DNA of 64,000 bases from Candidatus Melainabacteria bacterium (lineage in GTDB: Bacteria > Cyanobacteriota > Vampirovibrionia > Vampirovibrionales > Vampirovibrionaceae): positions 64,537 to 128,536 of the forward strand of contig JBFWUP010000004.1 of assembly GCA_050247195.1 (NCBI GenBank), given 5' to 3'. The notes beneath the pieces are model-generated. The model saw only the letters and a program-made list of their open reading frames with translations. It was not told the DNA's origin and ran no database searches. Within the stretch, counting starts at the first letter, position 1. Each line of letters starts with the position of its first letter. Shown in pieces: positions 5,264-47,573 of this stretch. A program made the position numbers and the translations under genes.

Positions 5264-5655
5264 GCGGAACGCTTCTGATCGACACCAACGTCATTTCATT
5301 TATTCTCAAGGGCGACACGCGGGCTGCACGTTATTCATCACAGTTGGTCGGAAACGCTCTGGCCATCTCGTTTATGACTCTGGCGGAGCTGGACCGCTGG
5401 GCAATTGCACATCGTTGGGGAGAGCGAAAAAAGGCGCAATTGGATCATTATCTGACTCAGTTTGTCGTGTTACCGGTGGATCGGTTACTCTGCGAACAAT
5501 GGGCGAAAGTCAGCGATCAGGCGGCCAGGGACGGAAAACCGATTCAATGTGCCGATGCATGGATAGCGGCAACCGCCATTCTTTATGACATTCCACTGGT
5601 GACGCACAACCCCAAGGATTTTAAGCACATTACCGGCTTAAAAATATTACATTAA
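5260..5655 (+). CDS. vapC: PIN-domain ribonuclease toxin VapC
   Basis: The N-terminus reads LLIDTNVISF and conserved acidic residues follow at …DAWIAATAI…PLVTHNPKDF…. Confidence 0.8.
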   Translation: MSGTLLIDTNVISFILKGDTRAARYSSQLVGNALAISFMTLAELDRWAIAHRWGERKKAQLDHYLTQFVVLPVDRLLCEQWAKVSDQAARDGKPIQCADAWIAATAILYDIPLVTHNPKDFKHITGLKILH

Positions 5656-5703
5656 TAGCAAAAAAAGCACTTGCTTTTGACATCGGTTCACTACAAGTGA
5701 GCG

Positions 5704-6138
5704 TCATTGACTTATGTCTTCCAATACTTTTTCCAGAAATTCTTGTGGGTGCTCTTTCGCTAATCTATTTCCATCAATCCCCCCACTCAATATGAAGAGA
5801 GCATTTAATGCAATACACCCATAAGACGAGATACCAAATGCAAGCAATAGCCATCCCAATGGATTTTTCAAGATTAGCATTACGCCACTAACAATAATCA
5901 ATATCAACCCACCAAGTATACTTTGCCAACCGAACCCCATTAACAAAGCACCGAAGATACGAAGTTCAATATTTGGTTGTATGAGAAATAATGCCCCAAA
6001 AATACCGACTAAACTCCGGTATTTGTATAGCTGACAATAAATCATGCGAAACAAATAAATAGAGGTATGTACTAACGTTGCTAAAACTAGCAAAATAAAA
6101 GCTGGTATAGCGAATATCATTGATAGTATCGATGACAA
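5704..6138 (-). CDS. Hypothetical 4-TM membrane protein in an AT-rich (about 38% GC) islet
   Basis: The 144-aa translation is strongly hydrophobic. Local GC is far below the window average, suggesting foreign origin. Confidence 0.5.
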   Translation of the reverse strand: MSSILSMIFAIPAFILLVLATLVHTSIYLFRMIYCQLYKYRSLVGIFGALFLIQPNIELRIFGALLMGFGWQSILGGLILIIVSGVMLILKNPLGWLLLAFGISSYGCIALNALFILSGGIDGNRLAKEHPQEFLEKVLEDISQ

Positions 6139-27142: not shown

Positions 27143-27147
27143 CCTGC

Positions 27148-27288
27148 AAAAAAAATGCCCGCCGGTGGCAGGCAAAGTCTTGAGTAGAGTAAGTAGTAGA
27201 GTTAGAGTGTGTAGAAAAAATTGGAGTTGAGGTTTGTGTGGTATCCGCATAAAAACAGTCTTTTGGGTTTTTGTGCTAGTTTGTAACG
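27148..27288 (-). ncRNA. Putative small RNA module R1 (promoter-like motif, G-poor roughly 90-nt transcript, intrinsic terminator)
   Basis: It is the reverse complement of R2, matching over about 140 bp with one or two mismatches. It contains the ctagcacaaaaaccc…tgtttttatgcggata motif and a gcccgcc-acc-ggcgggc hairpin with a T-run. Confidence 0.3.
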
Positions 27289-27346: not shown

Positions 27347-28183
27347 TTGAGCCCTCCGACCCTTTCCGGCACAATGGCAGAGCAGGCCAGTGAATACGGA
27401 GAGCCCCGACAGATGCCCCACAACGCCATGGAAACCGCCTATGCCGCGCCAGAGATAGCCTTTGGCCCTTGCGGCGAGCCGTGCGATTCCCCATGTGACT
27501 CTCCCTGTGAGGGCGGTGGGGAGGCCGAAGGCCGCCAGGGCTGGCTGCAGAAACTCCTCTGTACGGGTTTCAACAACGCCATTGATCTCTGCTTTGACGA
27601 CGTGTACGCCGAACCCAAAACCATCCTGATGGTGGGCGGCTGCCGCCAGCGAACCTTTGCCCAGCGCCTCGCCCTGATGCTGCCCGGCGCCGAGATTGCC
27701 ATGGTGGATCCCAGTGAGGAAGAGGCTGTGCGCGCCAAACAGGAAATCTGCTGCCGTTTTGAGTTTTTTGTGGCCCCCATGGACCGGCTGCCCTTTGAGG
27801 ACGGCCAGTTTGACCTGGTACTGGCCCATAATCTGGCCGAACTGCTCCCGCCGCAAACCTGGGAAAGCGGCCTGAAAGAGGTGTTGCGCGTGGCCGGCAA
27901 AAACGTGCTGCTCAGCCATCATCGCGGGGGACTGACCCGGGGGATGGAAAGCCTGCTGGGCCTGTGGCCCGGCGCCCCCAGCCGTCCGGTTCAGGCCGCC
28001 CTGAAAGCCGGCGGAATAACGCTGCCGCAGACTCCGGCCCCCAACCCCGCCGATGTGAGGGCGCAACTGCGCCAACTGGCCCCGCAATACGATTTCACCA
28101 CGGAACTCACCCCCTTTCCCTGGCACTTATATATGGGGGTTCACCGGCAGATTCTGGCCGAACACACAGCCCGAACCGCCTGA
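27347..28183 (+). CDS. Class I SAM-dependent methyltransferase with an N-terminal CxxxCxxxCxxxC cysteine cluster
   Basis: It has a Methyltransf_11-like core (ILMVGGC…DLVLAHNL) and an N-terminal GPCGEPCDSPCDSPCEGGGE segment. Inverted copies of the R module flank it. Confidence 0.65.
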   Translation: MSPPTLSGTMAEQASEYGEPRQMPHNAMETAYAAPEIAFGPCGEPCDSPCDSPCEGGGEAEGRQGWLQKLLCTGFNNAIDLCFDDVYAEPKTILMVGGCRQRTFAQRLALMLPGAEIAMVDPSEEEAVRAKQEICCRFEFFVAPMDRLPFEDGQFDLVLAHNLAELLPPQTWESGLKEVLRVAGKNVLLSHHRGGLTRGMESLLGLWPGAPSRPVQAALKAGGITLPQTPAPNPADVRAQLRQLAPQYDFTTELTPFPWHLYMGVHRQILAEHTARTA

Positions 28184-28239: not shown

Positions 28240-28391
28240 CGTTACAAACTAGCACAAAAACCCAAAAGCCTGTTTTTATGCGGATACCACACAAACCTCA
28301 ACTCCAATTTTTTTCTACACACTCTAACTCTACTACTTACTCTACTCAAGACTTTGCCCGCCACCGGCGGGCATTTTTTTTGGCCGTGAGC
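28240..28391 (+). ncRNA. Putative small RNA module R2
   Basis: It has the same promoter-like motif, a G-poor region (ccacacaaacctcaactccaatttttttctacacactctaactctactacttactctactcaag), a perfect gcccgcc-acc-ggcgggc hairpin and a T8 run. Confidence 0.3.
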
Positions 28392-28451: not shown

Positions 28452-28568
28452 GGTTACAAACTAGCACAAAATTCAAAAATGGGGGTTTTATGCCCACAGA
28501 CAACACACTCTACTACTTACTCTACTCAAGACTTTGCCCGCCACCGGCGGGTTTTTTATTGGGCGCGG
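28452..28568 (+). ncRNA. Putative small RNA module R3 (diverged, shorter copy of R2)
   Basis: It contains ttacaaactagcacaaaa…ggttttatgcc…acactctactacttactctactcaagactttgcccgccaccggcgggtttttt. Confidence 0.3.
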
Positions 28569-41066: not shown

Positions 41067-41438
41067 TCAGGCCAGAATATCCCGGACGGCATGCCAGCCA
41101 TGGGAATCGGCGGAAAACACTTTGGCATTGGCCTCATAGGCCCGCGTCGCCGTCATCAGGGACAACAGGTCACCCACAAGGTCTGTCTGGCTGAAGATTT
41201 CCTGATACGGATACTCCGGTACCACACTGGGGTATGTTTCCAGCGAGACGGACGTGCTGGCGACACCACCCCCCTGCAGGGTAGCGGAATCAATCCGGCC
41301 AGGGGTGTAACCCGGTGTGGTCATATTGACGATGTTGTCCGCCGCCATATCCAGTCTCAGCTGCGCATCGCGCATCCCACTGGCGCTGATCCAGCCGGCC
41401 CGCGACGCGGACGTCATCCCTGTCACCTGAGACTCCAT
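41067..41438 (-). CDS. Flagellar basal-body rod FlgB/FlgC-family protein (stand-alone)
   Basis: It has an N-terminal rod motif (ISASGMRDAQLRLDMAADNIVNMTTPGY) and a C-terminal motif (DLVGDLLSLMTATRAYEANAKV). No other flagellar genes lie within the window. Confidence 0.5.
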   Translation of the reverse strand: MESQVTGMTSASRAGWISASGMRDAQLRLDMAADNIVNMTTPGYTPGRIDSATLQGGGVASTSVSLETYPSVVPEYPYQEIFSQTDLVGDLLSLMTATRAYEANAKVFSADSHGWHAVRDILA

Positions 41439-43576: not shown

Positions 43577-43585
43577 GTAAACAAA

Positions 43586-43625
43586 CCCCTCTCCCCCAAC
43601 CCCCTCTCCCCAAGGGGCGAGGGGG
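43586..43625. repeat. REP-like repeat copy
   Basis: The copy reads cccctctcccccaaccccctctccccaaggggcgaggggg. Confidence 0.65.
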
Positions 43626-43668
43626 CTTTCAGGTCATCTTTGTAAACTAATATTAACCGCCGGACGCA

Positions 43669-43710
43669 TCAAAAACCAAATGATTGTTTTTATGCGGTTG
43701 TAATCATTTT
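43669..43710 (+). promoter_or_regulatory. Promoter-like motif copy (…caaaaacc-N-ttgtttttatgcgg…) upstream of paralog 1
   Basis: It shares the AAAAACC / TTGTTTTTAT core with seven other copies in the window. Confidence 0.4.
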
Positions 43711-43801
43711 TTTGTGTTTTCTTCGATATTGGGATGGATGGAAAAGACTGCGGTCTCTTTTTGGGCCGCCACAGGTTGGGATAACGATAGGGGATTTGGA
43801 A

Positions 43802-44878
43802 ATGGGAATTCTTCAGAATCTGAAACTGGGCCGTGATCTGATGCAGGCTGCCAAGGCCTTCTCCGGTGAAAAGGGCACTGCCGCCCGCTGGACCGGCGAT
43901 CTGCTCACCGGCGCCGAGGGTCAGGAGACGCTGACGGCCATTCGTGGCTTTGTCGGTCATATCGATCGCAAACTAGGCAGCCAGTGGGCCAGTGAACTGC
44001 GCCTGGGCAGTAACAATGCCCCCACCAGACTGAGCAATTTTCTGCGCAGCAACGGCGTCGATGTGGATTCGATCATCGCCAGCCACAGTTCGGCGCTGAC
44101 ACAAACGCGGTCTGAAAATAAAGCCTTCCGGGAAGCCATATCATCGCTCCGTAAGCCCGACGGCAGCATCAACCGCGAGGCGCTTTCACCGCAATACCGC
44201 AAAATGCTGGAGGCACAGGAAAGCAAACTCAGCGCTGTGCGCGAGCGACTGGCCAACAAAGGCGCCCAGGTCCCTCAGGGCTCAGCCAGCCATGGCCTGA
44301 CCAATACGCAGGCTCCTGGTGGTTCGGTTCATATTGGGGGCACGCCCAAAGCCAATGCGACAGCCGGTACACAAACGGCCAGTAAAGCGACAATAAAACC
44401 CGGAATTGAGACCCGCGCATTTGGCGGTGCTCCGATTAATCCAGCGACCAAAGCAACGGCAACGCCACACCCACAGGCCATCGCGGTGGACCCTGCAGGC
44501 GTAGCTACGCTACCCAGCACAACCTCTGGTGCCACTTCCGGTGAGAAGAAATCTTGGTGGCAGCGGCTGACAGGCGGTAGCGACAGCAGCAACCCTGCAC
44601 CAGTCCGGCCACTGACAACACAGGAACAGGCGCTGGCGGATGCAAAGCTGAAAGCGAACAAAAATGGTGAAGCACTAGAGTTGGCAACGAGATATCGCCA
44701 ACAGCAAGAATCAGCCGTCCGGCTGGGTGTCCAGATCAACCGACAGGGTGTGGGCAAACCGGATACATTCCGGCATAACCTGATGACTTCAATTCAGGAA
44801 AGACTGGCGGTGCGGGCTGCACGAAAAAACGGTCAATTTAAACTGCCCACACCACAAGAACTTGGCTTGGGCGCATAG
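43802..44878 (+). CDS. Low-complexity protein, member 1 of the tandem paralog array (starts MGIL…)
   Basis: Its N-terminus MGILQNLKLG resembles that of paralog 2. The centre is Ala/Thr/Gly/Pro-rich and the promoter motif lies upstream. Confidence 0.45.
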   Translation: MGILQNLKLGRDLMQAAKAFSGEKGTAARWTGDLLTGAEGQETLTAIRGFVGHIDRKLGSQWASELRLGSNNAPTRLSNFLRSNGVDVDSIIASHSSALTQTRSENKAFREAISSLRKPDGSINREALSPQYRKMLEAQESKLSAVRERLANKGAQVPQGSASHGLTNTQAPGGSVHIGGTPKANATAGTQTASKATIKPGIETRAFGGAPINPATKATATPHPQAIAVDPAGVATLPSTTSGATSGEKKSWWQRLTGGSDSSNPAPVRPLTTQEQALADAKLKANKNGEALELATRYRQQQESAVRLGVQINRQGVGKPDTFRHNLMTSIQERLAVRAARKNGQFKLPTPQELGLGA

Positions 44879-45004
44879 TGGCTTAAAACGCAAACCTGAC
44901 CGACTGGGCCGGAGCAATCCGGCCCTTTTACCATCAGTGCTAAATTGCCTATTCACGGCACTTTCAACCGATACCAATGTGTAAAATTACAGAAACAATG
45001 CGGC

Positions 45005-45070
45005 AAACCGCCCAAAACGCCTAGCACAAAAACCCACAACATTGTTTTTATACATACAGATAGGGACTAA
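45005..45070 (+). promoter_or_regulatory. Promoter-like motif copy (aaccgcccaaaacgc-ctagcacaaaaaccc-N8-ttgtttttatacatacagataggga)
   Basis: The module is conserved, and the RBS region caggggacaagggcaacc is conserved downstream. Confidence 0.45.
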
Positions 45071-45130
45071 TCCACACTGAACGGATCATCAAGGCATTAG
45101 GGAATTCAGGGGACAAGGGCAACCACAGAC

Positions 45131-45856
45131 ATGGGCATTCTGATTTCAAGAATTATTGGCAGTCTGAAGACCACGGGTCGCAACGTGGACGGCTGGAAAC
45201 CCGCACTCAGCGAACTGAAAGGCGGCACGTCCTTTGCCAGTGACATCAAAACGATGTTCACCCCGGGCAGAGCCGACAACCTGAGAAACATTTACAGGAG
45301 TTATGCCCAGGGCAACAACAGACTGCTGGCCGCCGTGGCCACCGTGCGCGATGCCGAAGGCAGCTTTACCGGGGTACGCAATGCACTGCTGAACGCCACC
45401 GGCGCACTGCAGGGCCAGGCGATGAAACAACCCAAAGCCGCACGCATGCTGGGCCTCGCCGCACTCGGCGTGGGCGGGGCAGGGGCGCTCTGGTGGCTCA
45501 ACAGCAAGGATCACACCGGCAGTTCATCCATTTACCCGCCGGGCGTCACACCAGGGGGCGTACCCGGTGGCGGATATCCCGGTATGCCGGGTTACCCGGG
45601 CGGTGGTGGTTACCCCGCCATGCCGGGCTACCCACAGCCATATCCTTTTCCGGGGCAAACCCCCATGCTGCCGGGCGGCGGCTATTACGCCCAGCCGGGT
45701 TACATGCCGCCCCCCACGCCACCGCTGGCATCAGGGCTGCCTCCGGTCAATGATTCACCGTTTCCGATTGATCCGGGACACGCCAACCCGCCGTCATCCA
45801 TTTACGTTTCACCGTACGACGACGAAGGCTACTTCAACTTCGGAACCACCGCCTGA
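45131..45856 (+). CDS. Gly/Pro/Tyr-rich protein, paralog 2 (N-terminal helical domain, Gly/Ala hydrophobic segment, GYPG-repeat tail)
   Basis: It begins MGILISRIIGSLK…, carries LGLAALGVGGAGALWWL, and ends …GYPGMPGYPGGGGYPAMPGYPQPYPFPGQ…. Confidence 0.55.
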   Translation: MGILISRIIGSLKTTGRNVDGWKPALSELKGGTSFASDIKTMFTPGRADNLRNIYRSYAQGNNRLLAAVATVRDAEGSFTGVRNALLNATGALQGQAMKQPKAARMLGLAALGVGGAGALWWLNSKDHTGSSSIYPPGVTPGGVPGGGYPGMPGYPGGGGYPAMPGYPQPYPFPGQTPMLPGGGYYAQPGYMPPPTPPLASGLPPVNDSPFPIDPGHANPPSSIYVSPYDDEGYFNFGTTA

Positions 45857-46037
45857 AAACGCATTTCACCAACCAATTCATCTCACTCCAAATAGTCCCA
45901 ATATCATCCCAACCAACCGGTTGACGTCCCATGACGGCAGCCGGCTTTTTATTGCCGTAAAACCTCTCAGAAAGCGGGTTTACAGGACACAACAAAAAGT
46001 AAAGATTGGGTAACATGCCGGCAAAACCGACCCATCG

Positions 46038-46086
46038 CCTAGCATCAAAGTCCTCAGAAATGTTTTTATATGTACAGATAGGGACA
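46038..46086 (+). promoter_or_regulatory. Promoter-like motif copy
   Basis: The copy reads cctagcatcaaag…aatgtttttatatgtacagataggga. Confidence 0.4.
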
Positions 46087-46118
46087 GTCAGAAACATCAA
46101 TAAAAGACAGGGCACGGT

Positions 46119-46871
46119 TTGCTCCGGCAAACCCAAGGAACAGGGGACAGGGTCATTAGCATTCTCTCCACAATCAGTGACGTTGGCATGCACCTGAAGC
46201 TGGGTAAAAGCAGCTGGAAGGCATCGCGCATCATCAAGAAAGGCCTGAACAATGGCAAGGCCATTAATGATTTGCAGAAGGCCGCGCTGAAGAGCAGCAA
46301 GCCCCATTTTAACAACGCCTGGCTGAACGCCGAAGGCGACCTGAAACTCGCGCAGAGACTACTGAACCGCAACCTGCTGAAACCGACGCAGGGTCAGGCA
46401 CAACGCAAACATCTTTTGAATGCGCTGACAAACGCCTGGGAAGCCAGCGGCAAGGATCTTGAAAAAGGCATCCGCGAAGGCCTGCCGTTCTGGAACAGCC
46501 TCACGCTGGTCAAAAGCGGCGAGGCGTCCCGCGTCCTGAGTCAGATTTCACCCACAAAACTGGCGCTGGGTGCGCTGGCAGCCGGCGGGGCCGGCCTGGC
46601 CTACCTGAAGTGGGGACAGGACGTGCAGGCGCTGAACCTGGGTTATCCCGGTCAGATTCCACCCAGCCAGTGGTCACCGTTTTATCCGGCGCCGGGCAGC
46701 ACCGGCTACCCCGGAAACAATCCGGGCGCTTACCCCGGCTATCCGGGTCTCACGCCCGGCGGGCAAACCAACAATTTTCCGGGCGCAGACCCTTCGCTGA
46801 GCGGTGGCGGCGCCTATAACCCGGACGGCACCTTCCGGCTGAACGCCCTGAACAACGGCATTCTCAGCTAA
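46119..46871 (+). CDS. Gly/Pro/Tyr-rich protein, paralog 3
   Basis: It aligns with paralog 2 (ISILSTISDVG…, LALGALAAGGAGLAYL, …GYPGNNPGAYPGYPGLTPGG…). The aligned start position is an ATT at 46155; the ORF ATG at 46119 adds a 12-aa extension. Confidence 0.5.
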   Translation: MLRQTQGTGDRVISILSTISDVGMHLKLGKSSWKASRIIKKGLNNGKAINDLQKAALKSSKPHFNNAWLNAEGDLKLAQRLLNRNLLKPTQGQAQRKHLLNALTNAWEASGKDLEKGIREGLPFWNSLTLVKSGEASRVLSQISPTKLALGALAAGGAGLAYLKWGQDVQALNLGYPGQIPPSQWSPFYPAPGSTGYPGNNPGAYPGYPGLTPGGQTNNFPGADPSLSGGGAYNPDGTFRLNALNNGILS

Positions 46872-46883
46872 AAAAGCTATACG

Positions 46884-46932
46884 GCTAGCACAAAAAACCC
46901 CTTATTTGTTTTTATATAAACGTATAGGGATT
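46884..46932 (+). promoter_or_regulatory. Promoter-like motif copy
   Basis: The copy reads ggctagcacaaaaaacccc-ttatttgtttttatataaacgtataggga. Confidence 0.45.
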
Positions 46933-46951
46933 ATGGGAACAGGGACCAACG

Positions 46952-47464
46952 ATGTCAACCACATCCTCAGGATTTGAAGCGTTTCTGAAACTGGGCGGCC
47001 AATGGCTTAAAGGCTCAGGCAAAAAGGGCGCCGCCCGCAAAGCTGGCGCGCTGTTTTCTGTTGCGCTACCCACCCTGTTGGCGGCCCGAGGGGTTTATAA
47101 AGCCTACGCCAAAAACGTGGCCCGAACGGCCGTTAAAACCACCGCCAGCCAAGCCACGCATGGCGTGTGGCGCTCCGCTGCCGGACTGGCCGTGGGCGCC
47201 GTGGTTGGTGGCCTGGTTCTTGAAAAAGGCATTGGCATGCTGGCCAACCGCGGTGGCGGTGGCGCAACCGGTTTTGACGCAATGGCTCCGGGCGGCTACG
47301 ACCCGGCCATGATGGGCGCCGGTCTGGATCCATACGCGGCGATGGCAGGGTATCCCGGCGGCGGTTCCGCAATGGGTTCCGAATTCGGCCAGGCCATACC
47401 GGCCTCGGGCGGCAGCACCCTGGATGACGCCTGGCGCGCTTACAACAGCCTGGGCGTGGGCTAG
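46952..47464 (+). CDS. Gly/Ala/Met/Pro-rich protein, paralog 4
   Basis: It carries AAGLAVGAVVGGLVL and a tail …GGYDPAMMGAGLDPYAAMAGYPGGGSAMG…. The conserved leader acagggaccaacgATG lies upstream. Confidence 0.5.
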   Translation: MSTTSSGFEAFLKLGGQWLKGSGKKGAARKAGALFSVALPTLLAARGVYKAYAKNVARTAVKTTASQATHGVWRSAAGLAVGAVVGGLVLEKGIGMLANRGGGGATGFDAMAPGGYDPAMMGAGLDPYAAMAGYPGGGSAMGSEFGQAIPASGGSTLDDAWRAYNSLGVG

Positions 47465-47501
47465 GCAATAAAGAAGGCGCCGGCCATGCCGACGCCTTCT
47501 G

Positions 47502-47573
47502 TGCGAGTTCTGGGATTCGAACCCAGGGCCTATCCCTTAAAAGGGGAGTGCTCTACCGCTGAGCTAAACTCGC
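47502..47573 (-). tRNA. tRNA-Lys (anticodon TTT)
   Basis: It folds by hand into a cloverleaf: acceptor GCGAGTT/AACTCGC, D-arm GCTC/GAGC, anticodon loop CTTTTAA, T-arm CTGGG-TTCGAAT-CCCAG. CCA is not encoded. Confidence 0.8.

What the first reader, a model, noticed from the sequence alone, without database searches (positions are those of the whole stretch)
43669..47464. Tandem array of four co-regulated low-complexity Gly/Pro/Tyr-rich paralogs with conserved promoter and leader, ending at tRNA-Lys
Four consecutive same-strand genes start at 43802, 45131, 46119 and 46952. Each is preceded by the same composite upstream module, which is not found in front of housekeeping genes in the window. 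The module consists of aaccgcccaaaacgc, then ctagcacaaaaaccc, then ttgtttttata, then ..cagataggga, and then a conserved leader and RBS, caggggaca-agggc-N8-ATG. Paralogs 2 to 4 share one architecture. They have an alpha-helical N-domain, a Gly/Ala-rich hydrophobic segment such as LGLAALGVGGAGALWWL, and a GYPG/PGY-repeat tail reminiscent of eukaryotic low-complexity or elastomeric sequences. Paralog 1 shares the MGIL N-terminus but is longer and lacks the hydrophobic segment. The array sits between bioB and a tRNA-Lys gene and is bounded upstream by a REP-like repeat. This is the typical placement of an acquired or rapidly evolving island. No homologous family of this kind is known to me.
Basis: partly seen in the sequence, partly recalled or inferred. 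Interest (0 to 1): 0.8.

Follow-up and report, generated by a model that had tools for sequence, protein, structure and literature searches.

The report
Orphan gene array behind order-wide promoter
Four neighbouring genes for unknown, partly disordered Gly/Pro/Tyr-rich proteins in a non-photosynthetic cyanobacterial relative (Melainabacteria) each carry their own copy of a 31-bp promoter-like element that turns out to be shared by many orphan genes and small RNAs across the whole order Vampirovibrionales, pointing to an undescribed, lineage-wide gene-expression programme.

Summary
Four same-strand ORFs lie between bioB and a convergent tRNA-Lys, and each follows a conserved module, CTAGCAC(A)AAAA-N9-yTGTTTTTAT (degenerate before gene 1).

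The module is a bipartite promoter-like element specific to Vampirovibrionales:
- A scan of 185,579 species genomes gave 66 intergenic sites in 65 Vampirovibrionales-type loci. The other 37 hits were mostly chance matches inside coding sequence.
- The window holds three more copies, in front of G-free small-RNA genes.
- In the only relative found, the gene-2 promoter is 100% identical over about 50 nt, while the gene-1 protein is about 55% identical.

The proteins are true orphans, with no hit in 5.8 billion or 1.84 billion proteins, Pfam, NCBIfam, PHROGs or PDB.

"Paralogs" is only partly supported. The N-domains show no significant similarity; only the low-complexity tails and the 5' modules do. 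The hydrophobic Gly/Ala segments are marginal transmembrane candidates. There is no GC signal of an acquired island.

Best reading: four independent transcription units of a lineage-wide regulon, driven by an alternative sigma factor or an activator, that is enriched in orphan low-complexity and glycine-zipper proteins. Their biochemical function remains inferred, probably envelope-associated and stage-specific.

The parts
43582..43625 (.). REP-like GC-rich hairpin repeat after bioB (CCCTCTCCCCAAGGGGCGAGGGGG preceded by a half copy)
   Evidence: 4 copies in the window (41848, 43602, 59560, 59954), 0 expected; a near-identical copy in L061, from another Vampirovibrionales MAG. It is a dispersed intergenic repeat, not an island border.
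43663..43693 (+). Degenerate copy of the promoter module before gene 1 (GACGCATCAAAAACC-N6-TTGTTTTTAT). Predicted TSS is G at 43700, giving a 102-nt leader with 3 GGGA motifs.
   Evidence: (family D3). The TSS position is inferred from the order-wide position statistics.
43802..44878 (+). Gene 1: 358-aa basic (+18) protein with helical N- and C-terminal regions and an Ala/Gly/Ser/Thr-rich disordered centre. It has no hydrophobic segment.
   Evidence: One ortholog, P0003, at 55-62% identity, with conserved blocks and indels confined to the low-complexity centre. No Pfam, NCBIfam, PHROG or PDB hit. AF2 pLDDT 42.
44906..44929 (+). Terminator-like hairpin after gene 1 (GGGCCGGA-GCAA-TCCGGCCC + TTTT)
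   Evidence: Read directly from the sequence. The hairpin is kept in the ortholog with compensatory changes (GGTCCGGAG..CTCCGGGCC).
45021..45051 (+). Canonical promoter module before gene 2 (CTAGCACAAAAACCCACAACATTGTTTTTAT). Predicted TSS is A at 45058. The 73-nt leader AGAUAGGGAC...UUAGGGAAUUCAGGGGACAAGGGCAA carries 3 GGGA motifs.
   Evidence: It is 100% identical over about 50 nt in the ortholog locus L107.
45131..45856 (+). Gene 2: 241 aa. It has a basic helical head (1-106, +9), the Gly/Ala-rich segment LGLAALGVGGAGALWWL (107-123), and an acidic P/G/Y-rich disordered tail containing a 36-nt tandem duplication (GGYPxMPGYPGG).
   Evidence: It hits only itself in 5.8e9 proteins and 1.84e9 proteins. 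In the ortholog N-terminus, 24 of 28 aa are identical by BLAST, with 10 synonymous against 4 non-synonymous codon changes by my own count.
45917..45953 (+). Terminator-like hairpin after gene 2 (CCGGTTG...CAGCCGG + CTTTTTATT)
   Evidence: Read directly from the sequence. Inference only.
46039..46069 (+). Promoter module before gene 3 (CTAGCATCAAAGTCCTCAGAAATGTTTTTAT). Predicted TSS is A at 46076. The leader starts AGAUAGGGAC and ends CAGGGGACAGGGUC.
   Evidence: The 87 nt upstream of genes 2 and 3 are 70% identical (family D2).
46119..46871 (+). Gene 3: 250 aa from TTG 46119. Alternative starts are ATT 46155/46161 and ATG 46188. It has a Lys/Leu-rich basic head (+14), the segment LALGALAAGGAGLAYL, and a G/P/N/Y-rich tail.
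   Evidence: called as 227 or 250 aa; no homolog but itself. GC3 is 0.73, typical of genes in this genome.
46885..46915 (+). Canonical promoter module before gene 4 (CTAGCACAAAAAACCCCTTATTTGTTTTTAT). Predicted TSS is G at 46922. The 30-nt leader GUAUAGGGAUUAUGGGAACAGGGACCAACG carries 3 GGGA motifs.
46952..47464 (+). Gene 4: 170 aa, with a basic head, the segment AAGLAVGAVVGGLVL, and a Gly/Ala/Met/Pro-rich tail with few Tyr.
   Evidence: weak 28% match to gene 2, E 0.002 for the single comparison; not above shuffles, Z 2.0.
47501..47573 (-). tRNA-Lys(UUU), convergent with the array. It has its own canonical sigma-70-type promoter, TTGACC-16-TAGAAT, at 47661-47634.
28249..28381 (+). Same promoter module, followed by a G-free sRNA-like unit of about 96 nt (predicted TSS 28286) with CUCUAC repeats, the conserved 10-mer CUCUACUCAA and a Rho-independent terminator.
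   Evidence: No Rfam family matches.
27146..27279 (-). Second, divergently oriented copy of the promoter plus sRNA unit
28461..28558 (+). Third, shorter sRNA copy behind a degenerate module (CTAGCACAAAATTC...GGGGGTTTTAT)

Best explanation
**Organism.** The window comes from a Melainabacteria MAG (GCA_050182425.1).

**Transcription.** The four genes are four separate transcription units. Each is driven by its own copy of a bipartite promoter that is specific to the order Vampirovibrionales.
- The upstream block, (CTA)GCAC(A)AAAA, sits where a -35 element would.
- Exactly 9 nt later comes the downstream block, yTGTTTTTAT, which reads as an extended -10 (TG-n-TTTTAT).
- Transcription most likely starts at the invariant purine 7 nt after TTTTAT.
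- This element differs from the canonical TTGACC/TAGAAT promoter of the neighbouring tRNA-Lys. It is therefore probably read by a dedicated alternative sigma factor, or by the housekeeping sigma together with an activator bound at GCACAAAAA.

**Leaders.** The mRNAs begin with purine-rich, weakly structured leaders carrying 2-3 (A/U)GGG(G)A motifs. The last motif serves as the Shine-Dalgarno sequence. The others may be ribosome stand-by sites or sites for an RNA-binding regulator.

**Regulon.** The same promoter drives a family of G-free small RNAs and, across the order, many other mostly orphan genes. These are enriched in Gly/Pro/Tyr-rich and glycine-zipper proteins and also include a subtilase, a LysM protein and an endolysin-like protein. 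The array is therefore one local cluster of a lineage-wide, condition- or stage-specific regulon.

**Products.**
- Genes 2-4 encode lineage-specific proteins with a basic helical head, a short Gly/Ala 'zipper' segment and an acidic disordered Gly/Pro/Tyr tail.
- My committed guess, with low confidence, is that they are envelope-associated. They would be weakly membrane-anchored, head inside and tail outside, self-associating through the Gly/Ala segment, and would contribute a disordered aromatic/proline layer during that stage.
- Gene 1 is a soluble basic partner sharing the N-terminal MGIL..LKLG peptide.

**Shown:** the ORFs, motif conservation, the taxonomic range, intergenic placement and orientation, orphan status and the composition of the proteins.

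**Inferred:** the TSS, the sigma factor or activator, the role of the GGGA motifs, the topology and the function.
For: **Motif in the window**
- 5 strong copies against 0.02 expected.

**Order-wide occurrence**
- The GTDB-wide scan returned 102 loci, of which 65 come from Vampirovibrionales-type MAGs, with up to 7 per genome.
- Only 5 of the 66 sites in those MAGs lie in open frames of 150 codons or more, against 29 of 37 hits in other taxa (Fisher p = 2e-13).
- Of the 66 sites, 53 have a same-strand ORF with an SD-like sequence within 330 nt. Others are followed by terminator-ended sRNA-like units.

**Unconstrained positions are conserved**
- Position +37 is a purine in 64 of 64 sites.
- Position +36 is a pyrimidine in 59 of 64.
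- Position +31 is a purine in 63 of 64.

**Ortholog locus L107**
- The promoter and the start of the leader are identical over about 50 nt, while the gene-1 protein is 55-62% identical.
- Gene 2 shows mostly synonymous change.

**Contrast with a housekeeping promoter**
- The tRNA-Lys promoter is a canonical sigma-70 type.

**GGGA motifs**
- GGGA is enriched 3-fold in the predicted leaders: 69 observed against 23.5 in shuffles (maximum 34). GGAG and GAGG are not enriched.
- The leaders are weakly folded, and no G-quadruplex is predicted.

**Arrays elsewhere**
- Tandem same-strand arrays of promoter-plus-orphan-gene units recur in L094, L025, L005 and L033. L094 holds three G/Y/P-rich glycine-zipper proteins.

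**Regulon ORFs**
- 10 of 46 have G+P+Y >= 25%, against 12 of 246 control ORFs (p = 6e-4).
- Only 8 Pfam families were hit by the 46 ORFs, each by one member.

**Protein anatomy**
- Head charges are +9 and +14 and tail charges -5 and -2 for genes 2 and 3.
- Helices are predicted up to residue 125, followed by coil.
Against: - No transcript data exist, so the TSS and even promoter function are inferred from conservation alone.
- The -10-like hexamer TTTTAT lacks the near-universal A at -11. The -35/-10 assignment may therefore be wrong.
- No sigma factor, CsrA, FliW or flagellin gene was found in the window or in about 0.7 Mb of regulon loci. The regulator is unknown.
- The hydrophobic segments are marginal. 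Kyte-Doolittle 17-residue maxima are 1.56 (gene 2) and 1.35 (gene 3). A crude Hessa-type sum is +1.7 for gene 2 and about +4 for genes 3 and 4. Membrane anchoring may be wrong.
- Both AlphaFold models are unusable, with pLDDT 44 and 42.
- Most regulon ORFs are not G/P/Y-rich, so regulon membership says little about biochemical function.
- Genes 3 and 4 have no ortholog, so their coding status rests on ORF length, GC3 (0.73 and 0.66) and the promoter/SD context.
Confidence: 0.55

Rival explanations
1. The module is a housekeeping-sigma promoter under a dedicated transcription factor, not the target of an alternative sigma. GCACAAAAA would be the operator of a class-II activator or a repressor overlapping the -35 position, and TGTTTTTAT a weak extended -10 that needs that factor.
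For: TG lies at -15/-14 relative to the inferred TSS, and the hexamer is T-rich, which is typical of extended -10 promoters that lack a -35 element. Relaxed variants keep GCACAA and TTTTAT while the flanking bases vary. No sigma gene is linked to any regulon locus.
Against: The upstream block has no dyad or direct-repeat symmetry of the kind usual for activator sites. The strictly fixed spacing and single orientation fit sigma recognition equally well. TTTTAT lacks A-11, which the housekeeping sigma normally needs.
Confidence: 0.3
2. The proteins are exported effectors or toxins of a predatory or host-associated lifestyle, acting on prey membranes or mimicking eukaryotic PY-rich low-complexity regions. 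The regulon would then be an 'attack' programme, analogous to the FliA-driven attack-phase regulon of Bdellovibrio.
For: Vampirovibrio chlorellavorus, the one cultured member of the order, is an obligate predator of Chlorella, with a T4SS and a flagellum (PMC4451040). Regulon ORFs include a subtilase, a LysM protein and an endolysin-like protein, and most are lineage-specific orphans, as effector repertoires typically are. All four proteins share an N-terminal peptide (MGIL..LKLG, partly encoded by the same DNA, CTGAARCTGGG; D17). The glycine-zipper segments resemble those of pore-forming effectors (my own knowledge, not tested here).
Against: No Sec signal peptide and no recognisable T4SS-type C-terminal signal is visible (sequence reading). 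No secretion genes lie nearby. The lifestyle of this MAG is unknown. The composition similarity to annexin/ALIX-type PY regions is recalled from memory, not tested.
Confidence: 0.2
3. The proteins are cytoplasmic, intrinsically disordered stress or dormancy proteins, either protective hydrophilins or condensate/gel formers. In that case the Gly/Ala segment would be a self-association motif rather than a membrane anchor.
For: The hydrophobic segments are too weak for confident membrane insertion. The tails are disordered and rich in aromatic residues, Gly and Pro, a composition typical of self-associating low-complexity regions (my own knowledge). Sub-threshold Pfam hits of related regulon proteins go to stress-associated families: the YMGG/OsmB-like glycine zippers and ABA_WDS. 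Co-regulated sRNAs are common in stress regulons (my own knowledge, not tested here).
Against: The charge asymmetry (basic head, acidic tail) fits a membrane topology. Related regulon proteins such as L094a have clearly hydrophobic glycine-zipper segments (Hessa sum -0.3).
Confidence: 0.2
4. The array is a recently acquired or mobile island, for example a tRNA-linked island, integron-like cassettes or a prophage remnant.
For: The array lies next to a tRNA gene and holds orphan genes in tandem, each with a repeated flanking element. GC3 of gene 1 is 0.58, against 0.73-0.81 in housekeeping genes.
Against: No integrase, transposase or phage gene lies within 10 kb. There is no PHROG hit. The repeated element has no dyad symmetry and is dispersed singly across many genomes in front of unrelated genes. 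Coding GC equals that of the flanks. Gene 1 / gene 2 adjacency and the promoter are conserved in a relative. The viral-contig scan gave only chance hits.
Confidence: 0.05

Closest known systems
Alternative-sigma regulons with a lineage-wide signature promoter, e.g. the FliA (sigma-28) attack-phase regulon of Bdellovibrio bacteriovorus, which also includes a highly expressed small RNA (from my own knowledge of Karunker et al. 2013; not read here)
   Same: A bipartite motif with fixed spacing lies in front of many functionally unannotated genes and non-coding RNAs in a (presumed) predatory lineage. Genes in tandem each carry their own copy.
   Different: The sequence (CTAGCACAAAAA-N9-yTGTTTTTAT) matches no sigma consensus I know, whether sigma-28, sigma-54, ECF, cyanobacterial SigF or the J-box. 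No cognate sigma has been identified, no flagellin lies behind it in the loci sampled, and there are no expression data.
Glycine-zipper membrane proteins (Pfam Gly-zipper_YMGG PF13441, Gly-zipper_Omp PF13488, Rick_17kDa_Anti PF05433; OsmB/SlyB-like stress lipoproteins)
   Same: They are small proteins with Gly/Ala-rich GxxxG-type hydrophobic segments. Other members of the same regulon reach sub-threshold hits (L092, E = 7e-5 to PF13441).
   Different: The window proteins give no such hit even at E <= 1. They have no lipoprotein signal peptide. They have a 100-150-aa helical head and a G/P/Y tail that these families lack.
Unnamed Vampirovibrionales family seen here: G/Y/P-rich N-terminus, then a glycine zipper, then the C-terminal motif RDAxDDG(R/K)xNGS (L056, L092, and two of the three L094 genes, here called L094a and L094b)
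   Same: They share the promoter, the GGGGGA-type SD, the amino-acid palette and the tandem-array organisation.
   Different: The domain order is reversed (low-complexity region first). There is no detectable sequence similarity to genes 1-4. The C-terminal motif is at best faintly echoed in genes 2 and 4.
CsrA/RsmA-controlled leaders and Rsm-type sponge RNAs
   Same: Several single-stranded A/U-GGG(G)A motifs lie in short leaders, with the last one overlapping the SD. The L039 leader has 13 GGGA motifs in 245 nt, arranged as repeated hairpin units.
   Different: The motif is GGGA/GGGGA rather than ANGGA in hairpin loops. No csrA or fliW gene was found in the sequence available. The motifs may simply be SD-like stand-by sites.
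Eukaryotic Pro/Gly/Tyr low-complexity regions (annexin A7/A11 N-termini, the ALIX proline-rich region, resilin/silk GPGGY-type elastomers), from memory
   Same: The composition and short repeats (GYPG, PGYP) of the gene 2 and gene 3 tails.
   Different: The resemblance is in composition only and homology cannot be tested. The weak Pfam hit of gene 3 to ALIX_LYPXL_bnd (E = 0.086) lies in the helical head and is noise.

Membership tests
Sigma-factor-type bipartite promoter | Two conserved blocks at a fixed distance, in one orientation | tested here: met
   The fixed N12 spacing between the searched blocks CTAGCAYMAA and TGTTTTTAT recovers all copies. There are 66 sites in Vampirovibrionales MAGs.
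Sigma-factor-type bipartite promoter | Intergenic location upstream of same-strand genes or RNAs | tested here: met
   5 of 66 sites lie in long open frames, against 29 of 37 for chance hits elsewhere. 53 of 66 have a downstream ORF with an SD. Others precede terminator-ended RNAs.
Sigma-factor-type bipartite promoter | Transcription start at the expected distance (pyrimidine-purine at -1/+1) | tested here: inconclusive
   A purine occurs in 64 of 64 sites and the preceding pyrimidine in 59 of 64, 7 nt after TTTTAT. No transcript ends are available.
Sigma-factor-type bipartite promoter | Identified cognate sigma factor or regulator | not testable with these tools
   tblastn found no sigma-70-family gene in the window or the loci.
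   Smith-Waterman against 300 shuffles gives Z between 0.5 and 2.1 for every pair of N-domains. BLASTP finds nothing for gene 1 against gene 2.
   The upstream 87 nt of genes 2 and 3 are 70% identical, and 53 nt of genes 2-4 are 75-77% identical. Genes 1 and 4 share the exact 13-mer TCTGAAACTGGGC at the LKLG codons. The gene 2 / gene 3 tails give Z 4.6.
Pfam glycine-zipper families (PF13441, PF13488, PF05433) | HMM match at or above the gathering score | tested here: not met
   No hit for genes 1-4 at E <= 1.
Pfam glycine-zipper families (PF13441, PF13488, PF05433) | Lipoprotein or Sec signal peptide | tested here: not met
   The N-termini are amphipathic and charged (MGILISRIIGSLKTTGRN...). 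There is no hydrophobic core and no lipobox.
Bitopic (single-pass) membrane protein | A hydrophobic segment sufficient for insertion | tested here: inconclusive
   KD17 maxima are 1.56 (gene 2) and 1.35 (gene 3). The crude Hessa sum is +1.7, +4.3 and +3.9 for genes 2, 3 and 4, against -2.9 for glycophorin A. The charge asymmetry fits a head-in, tail-out topology.
CsrA/Rsm-regulated leader | Multiple unpaired GGA-containing motifs, one of them at the SD | tested here: met
   GGGA occurs 69 times against 23.5 in shuffles. Each of the four leaders has 2-3 copies, and the leaders are weakly structured.
CsrA/Rsm-regulated leader | CsrA (and FliW) encoded by the organism | tested here: inconclusive
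   There is no tblastn hit in the window or in 102 loci, but only a small part of each genome was available.
Phage structural or mobile-element genes | Match to phage protein families, or presence on viral contigs | tested here: not met
   PHROGs gave no hit. The viral-contig scan with the module gave only chance coding hits in AT-rich phages. There are no integrase or phage neighbours.
Known RNA families (for the co-regulated sRNAs and the leaders) | Rfam covariance-model match | tested here: not met
   Only tRNAs reach the gathering score. The best sub-threshold hits have E of 0.4-0.6.

The most novel reading that the evidence does not exclude
The 31-bp element is the recognition sequence of a so-far unknown sigma specificity that acts as the master switch of the Vampirovibrionales lifestyle programme (for example prey attack or attachment). 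Its regulon would be a fast-evolving, largely de novo repertoire of disordered Gly/Pro/Tyr and glycine-zipper proteins, some mimicking eukaryotic PY-rich regions, together with a conserved G-free sRNA family (seed CUCUACUCAA) and GGGA-based translational control. The four genes here would be species-specific members deployed at the cell envelope or into prey.
Probability: 0.2. Interest if true: 0.85.

Novelty: new variant of a known kind. Interest (0 to 1): 0.62.

Why it matters
Melainabacteria are the closest non-photosynthetic relatives of cyanobacteria, and almost nothing is known about their gene regulation.

- **A computable handle on a regulon.** A single, nearly invariant promoter element across an order whose loci sampled here range from AT-rich to about 60% GC marks a complete regulon in uncultured organisms. 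Scanning any MAG for the motif lists the genes and sRNAs of one expression programme.
- **A route to experiment.** In the cultured predator Vampirovibrio chlorellavorus this makes the question "what is switched on during predation or stage change?" directly testable.
- **A possible case of gene birth.** The regulon is dominated by orphan, low-complexity proteins arranged in tandem promoter-gene units. This may be a natural case of rapid gene birth or divergence behind a fixed, portable 5' module (promoter, leader, N-terminal peptide).
- **The four proteins themselves.** They remain functionally unknown. Their value lies mainly in being the entry point to this regulon.

Tried and rejected
1. 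**sRNA-leader pairing.** RNA duplex prediction of the G-free sRNA against the four leaders gave weaker energies than shuffled sRNAs. Rejected.
2. **RNA G-quadruplex in the GGGA leaders.** Not predicted for the window leaders and only marginal for L052.
3. **Sigma-54 reading (TGGCAC-N5-TTGC).** The -24 GG and -12 GC dinucleotides are absent in the consensus. Rejected by inspection.
4. **HLR1/RpaB-like direct repeat.** GTTACAAA-CT-AGCACAAA occurs only before the sRNA copies, not before the four genes. Not general.
5. **Metagenome scan.** The promoter-plus-leader pattern returned 6 unrelated loci without the upstream block.
6. **AlphaFold.** Gene 2 (single sequence) and gene 1 (2-sequence alignment) gave pLDDT 44 and 42. 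The models were too poor for a fold search, so none was run.
7. **Linked regulator genes.** tblastn with probe sequences written from memory for CsrA, FliW, flagellin, FliA and RpoD against the window and loci gave no hits.
8. **Shared C-terminal motif.** DDG(R/K)xNGS is clear in L056, L092 and L094a/b. It matches genes 2 and 4 only under a loose regular expression. Not claimed.
9. **Island or phage origin.** No support.
10. **Literature.** Searches for Vampirovibrio or Melainabacteria promoters, sRNAs or transcriptomes found nothing relevant in the held library. One search with a malformed term failed.

Full report
**What is in the sequence**

The window has 59.7% GC. It belongs to a MAG labelled Candidatus Melainabacteria bacterium (GCA_050182425.1, contig JBFXCH010000004.1).

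Four same-strand ORFs lie between bioB (Radical_SAM + BATS) and a tRNA-Lys(UUU) gene that sits on the opposite strand, followed by purA:
- 43802-44878 (358 aa)
- 45131-45856 (241 aa)
- 46119-46871 (250 aa from TTG)
- 46952-47464 (170 aa)

Each gene has its own upstream copy of a conserved element. The repeat finder reports a 53-nt family before genes 2-4 (75-77% identity), an 87-nt family before genes 2 and 3 (70%) and a 28-nt core before all four. Genes 1 and 2 are followed by hairpin-plus-T-run terminators. The gene-4 promoter starts 14 nt after the gene-3 stop. The genes are therefore separate transcription units rather than an operon.

The REP-like hairpin after bioB is a dispersed repeat. 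It has 4 copies in the window, against 0 expected, and one in another genome.

**The upstream module is an order-wide promoter**

TTGTTTTTAT with at most one mismatch occurs 12 times in the window, against 1.7 expected. Reading the contexts showed the full module, CTAGCACAAAAACCC-N-yTGTTTTTAT, at two further places, 27279(-) and 28249(+), with a degenerate copy at 28461(+). None of these precedes a protein gene. They precede G-free units, about 96 nt long at the two full copies and about 60 nt at the degenerate one, that end in a GC hairpin and a T run, which makes them small-RNA genes. A relaxed scan gives 5 strong copies in 64 kb, against 0.02 in shuffles.

I then scanned one genome for each of 185,579 species with CTAGCAYMAA-N12-TGTTTTTAT. 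About 17 chance hits are expected, by my own estimate. The scan returned 102 loci, and 65 of them come from MAGs labelled Vampirovibrionales, Vampirovibrio or Melainabacteria, or from clearly related 'Cyanobacteria bacterium' MAGs. Up to 7 loci come from one genome.

In those genomes the motif is intergenic. The median open frame across it is 61 codons, and only 5 of 66 sites lie in frames of 150 codons or more. In all other taxa 29 of 37 hits lie inside long ORFs, as chance matches should (Fisher p = 2e-13). A viral-contig scan gave only such chance hits.

**Anatomy of the promoter**

I examined positions that the search pattern did not constrain, across the 64 sites with enough flanking sequence. 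The consensus is CTAGCACAAAAAnCCnA...aTTGTTTTTAT-R-C-W-n-A-T-R.
- The base 7 nt after TTTTAT is a purine in 64 of 64 sites.
- The base before it is a pyrimidine in 59 of 64.
- The base right after TTTTAT is a purine in 63 of 64.

This is the signature of a transcription start at that purine. It places TTTTAT at -12 to -7, TG at -15/-14 (an extended -10) and CTAGCAC at the -35 position. Relaxed variants in tandem arrays keep GCACAA and TTTTAT.

The neighbouring tRNA-Lys has an ordinary TTGACC-16-TAGAAT promoter, so the module is a distinct promoter class. The hexamer lacks A at -11 and the upstream block resembles no sigma consensus I know. I therefore favour a dedicated alternative sigma factor, with an activator-dependent housekeeping promoter as the main rival. 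No sigma gene is linked to any site.

**Conservation in orthologs**

Gene 1 has exactly one homolog in 5.8 billion proteins: P0003, about 55% identical by BLAST and 62% over the aligned columns, from JGI metagenome 3300009873.

On that 1.3-kb contig (L107), gene 1 is followed by a terminator hairpin kept through compensatory changes. Next comes a promoter identical to the gene-2 promoter over about 50 nt, including the first 10 nt of the leader. The conserved leader segment UUAGGGAAU..AGGGACAAGGGCAAC follows, and then an ORF starting MGLLISRIIGSLKTTGRNLDGW.

Of the 28 comparable codons of gene 2, 10 changed synonymously and 4 non-synonymously, by my count. Gene 2 is therefore a real protein-coding gene under purifying selection. 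The promoter is more conserved than the coding sequence. The co-regulation claim passes the test.

**Leaders**

From the inferred start sites the leaders are 102, 73, about 43-112 (depending on where gene 3 starts) and 30 nt long.

Leaders of genes 2-4 begin (A/G)(G/U)AUAGGGA. Each of the four leaders contains 2-3 (A/U)GGG(G)A motifs, and the last lies at SD distance.

Across 45 predicted leaders of the regulon, GGGA occurs 69 times, against 23.5 in shuffles (maximum 34) and at 4.7 times the locus background. GGAG and GAGG are not enriched. One leader (L039) has 13 GGGA motifs in 245 nt, arranged in repeated GGGA...UCCCGUGGGGA units.

The window leaders fold weakly and no G-quadruplex is predicted. 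GGGGGA can pair with the anti-SD through one G·U pair. The extra copies may be stand-by sites or binding sites for a CsrA-like protein. No csrA or fliW gene was found in the limited sequence available.

**The proteins**

None of the four matches Pfam, NCBIfam, PHROGs or PDB sequences. Gene 2 finds only itself in the word-indexed 5.8-billion set and in an exhaustive HMMER pass over 1.84 billion representatives. Gene 3 likewise finds only itself.

Composition and layout:

| Gene | Head | Gly/Ala segment | Tail |
|---|---|---|---|
| 2 | 106 aa, charge +9 | LGLAALGVGGAGALWWL | 118 aa; P 25%, G 19%, Y 10%; charge -5; 36-nt tandem duplication |
| 3 | 147 aa, charge +14 | LALGALAAGGAGLAYL | 86 aa; G 20%, P 16%, N 10%, Y 7% |
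| 4 | smaller basic head | AAGLAVGAVVGGLVL | Gly/Ala/Met/Pro-rich, few Tyr |

Gene 1 is basic (+18). It has conserved helical ends, a variable Ala/Gly/Ser/Thr centre and no hydrophobic segment.

AlphaFold gives helices for residues 2-125 of gene 2 and coil afterwards, but at pLDDT 44. Gene 1 reaches pLDDT 42. I did not run fold searches on such models.

The Gly/Ala segments are only marginally hydrophobic. KD17 is 1.56 for gene 2 and 1.35 for gene 3. A crude Hessa-type sum is +1.7, +4.3 and +3.9 for genes 2, 3 and 4, against -2.9 for glycophorin A. The charge asymmetry would fit a head-in, tail-out topology, but membrane insertion is not established.

**Are they paralogs?**

Outside the low-complexity regions, similarity is not significant. 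Smith-Waterman scores of the N-domains give Z between 0.5 and 2.1 against 300 shuffles. The BLASTP match of gene 2 to gene 4 (28% over 151 aa, E 0.002 for a single comparison) does not exceed shuffles. Only the gene 2 / gene 3 tails do (Z 4.6), and they are repeats.

What is clearly homologous is the 5' module. That module comprises the promoter, up to 87 nt upstream of genes 2 and 3, the leader motifs and the first codons:
- MGIL.. in genes 1 and 2;
- ..SIL.. after an in-frame ATT in gene 3;
- the LKLG codons, with the exact 13-mer TCTGAAACTGGGC shared by genes 1 and 4 and CTGAAGCTGGG in gene 3 (D17).

Either the genes arose by tandem duplication and diverged beyond recognition, or a portable 5' module was joined to different bodies. 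The ATT in gene 3 sits where gene 2 has ATG, so the gene-3 start is uncertain. The candidates are TTG 46119, ATT 46155/46161 and ATG 46188, and annotators disagree.

**What else the promoter drives**

In other Vampirovibrionales genomes, 53 of 66 sites have a same-strand ORF with an SD-like sequence within 330 nt.

The 46 such ORFs I scanned hit only 8 Pfam families, each in one member: Peptidase_S8, LysM, endolysin-like, Gly-zipper_YMGG, DUF745 and three EF-hand families. The rest are orphans.

Ten of the 46 have G+P+Y >= 25%, against 12 of 246 control ORFs from the same loci (p = 6e-4). Low-entropy segments are also about 3 times more frequent.

Tandem same-strand arrays of promoter-plus-gene units recur in L005, L025, L033 and L094. 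L094 has three consecutive G/Y/P-rich genes with hydrophobic glycine-rich segments. Two of them share a C-terminal motif, RDAxDDG(K/R)xNGS, with L092 and L056. None of these is detectably homologous to genes 1-4.

The window array is therefore a species-specific instance of a recurrent theme, not a unique oddity.

**The co-regulated sRNAs**

The three window copies and units behind the same promoter in L068, L080, L088 and L091 share an exact 10-mer, CUCUACUCAA. It lies 10-25 nt before a Rho-independent terminator and follows G-poor repeats (CUCUAC or CGACUAC).

No Rfam family matches. They do not pair with the four leaders better than shuffled controls do.

**Interpretation and limits**

Well supported:
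- Four independently promoted genes belong to a Vampirovibrionales-wide regulon defined by a new promoter motif.
- The proteins are lineage-specific.
- Genes 1 and 2 are conserved in one relative.

Inferred:
- the TSS and the type of regulator;
- the role of the GGGA motifs;
- the membrane topology;
- the biological role.

The only cultured member of the order is an obligate algal predator with a flagellum and a T4SS (PMC4451040). An 'attack or attachment stage' programme is an attractive analogy to the Bdellovibrio FliA regulon, but nothing here tests it.

I found no description of this motif, these sRNAs or these proteins in the searchable literature. That search is limited to the held library.

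The island hypothesis has no GC support. Gene 1 does have an atypically low GC3, 0.58 against 0.73-0.81 in housekeeping genes.

**Verdict**

The key object is the promoter and its regulon, not a paralogous protein family.

Novelty: a new variant of a known kind, namely a lineage-specific regulon of the alternative-sigma or activator type with an undescribed motif and an orphan protein and sRNA content.

Interest: 0.62.

Noticed in passing
window 27146-27279 (-), 28249-28381 (+), 28461-28558 (+); also L068, L080, L088, L091: A family of G-free small-RNA genes (about 96 nt at the two full copies, about 60 nt at the third) sits behind the same promoter. The body consists of CUCUAC or CGACUAC repeats. 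An exact conserved 10-mer, CUCUACUCAA, lies just before a Rho-independent terminator. The window has three copies flanking a methyltransferase-like ORF (27375-28183). No Rfam match.
   Followed up: partly
L039 (about 245 nt between the promoter and the ORF at 5512-5868, minus strand): This leader has 13 GGGA motifs arranged as repeated GGGA-N-UCCCGUGGGGA hairpin units, resembling an Rsm/Csr-type sponge. It lies upstream of a conserved coiled-coil protein of about 110-120 aa (MGLAASQARLLGLTARKSDLELQ...). That protein family also sits behind the promoter in L057 and L061.
   Followed up: partly
L014, L018, L065 (downstream of the promoter): A second sRNA-like type: about 100 nt, starting RCAnACACAGGGACAAACAC, containing GGGGGGACAUA and ending in a terminator. 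It is conserved between three MAGs.
   Followed up: no
window 41848, 43602, 59560, 59954; L061 4612-4634: A dispersed REP-like palindromic element, CCCTCTCCCCAAGGGGCGAGGGGG, sits at the 3' ends of genes. A near-identical copy lies in another Vampirovibrionales genome directly upstream of a promoter copy.
   Followed up: partly
L094 1297-3352 (-), L092 5777-6226, L056 3222-3827: An unnamed protein family with a G/Y/P-rich N-terminus, one or two glycine-zipper segments and the C-terminal motif (K/R)DAxDDG(K/R)xNGS. Two members, plus a third G/Y/P-rich gene lacking the motif, lie in tandem in L094, each with its own promoter copy.
   Followed up: partly
L015, L065, L077 (labelled Coleofasciculaceae cyanobacterium SMAG_U16478) and L056 (Oculatellaceae cyanobacterium SMAG_U16497): MAGs labelled as photosynthetic cyanobacteria carry several typical copies of the Vampirovibrionales promoter with GGGA leaders. 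The bins may be mislabelled or contaminated with Vampirovibrionales contigs.
   Followed up: no
window 46155-46163: Gene 3 has in-frame ATT codons exactly where gene 2 has its ATG (ISILST against MGILIS). This suggests an ATG-to-ATT change, with either a non-canonical start or a shift of the start to TTG 46119 or ATG 46188.
   Followed up: partly
window 43802-44878: Gene 1 has GC3 of 0.58, against 0.73-0.81 for housekeeping genes in the window, although it is conserved in a relative. Its codon usage is atypical.
   Followed up: no
window 41067-41417 (-): A flagellar basal-body rod gene (weak Flg_bb_rod / Flg_bbr_C hits) lies about 2 kb upstream of bioB, so the organism is probably flagellated. 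No copy of the promoter module precedes it.
   Followed up: partly
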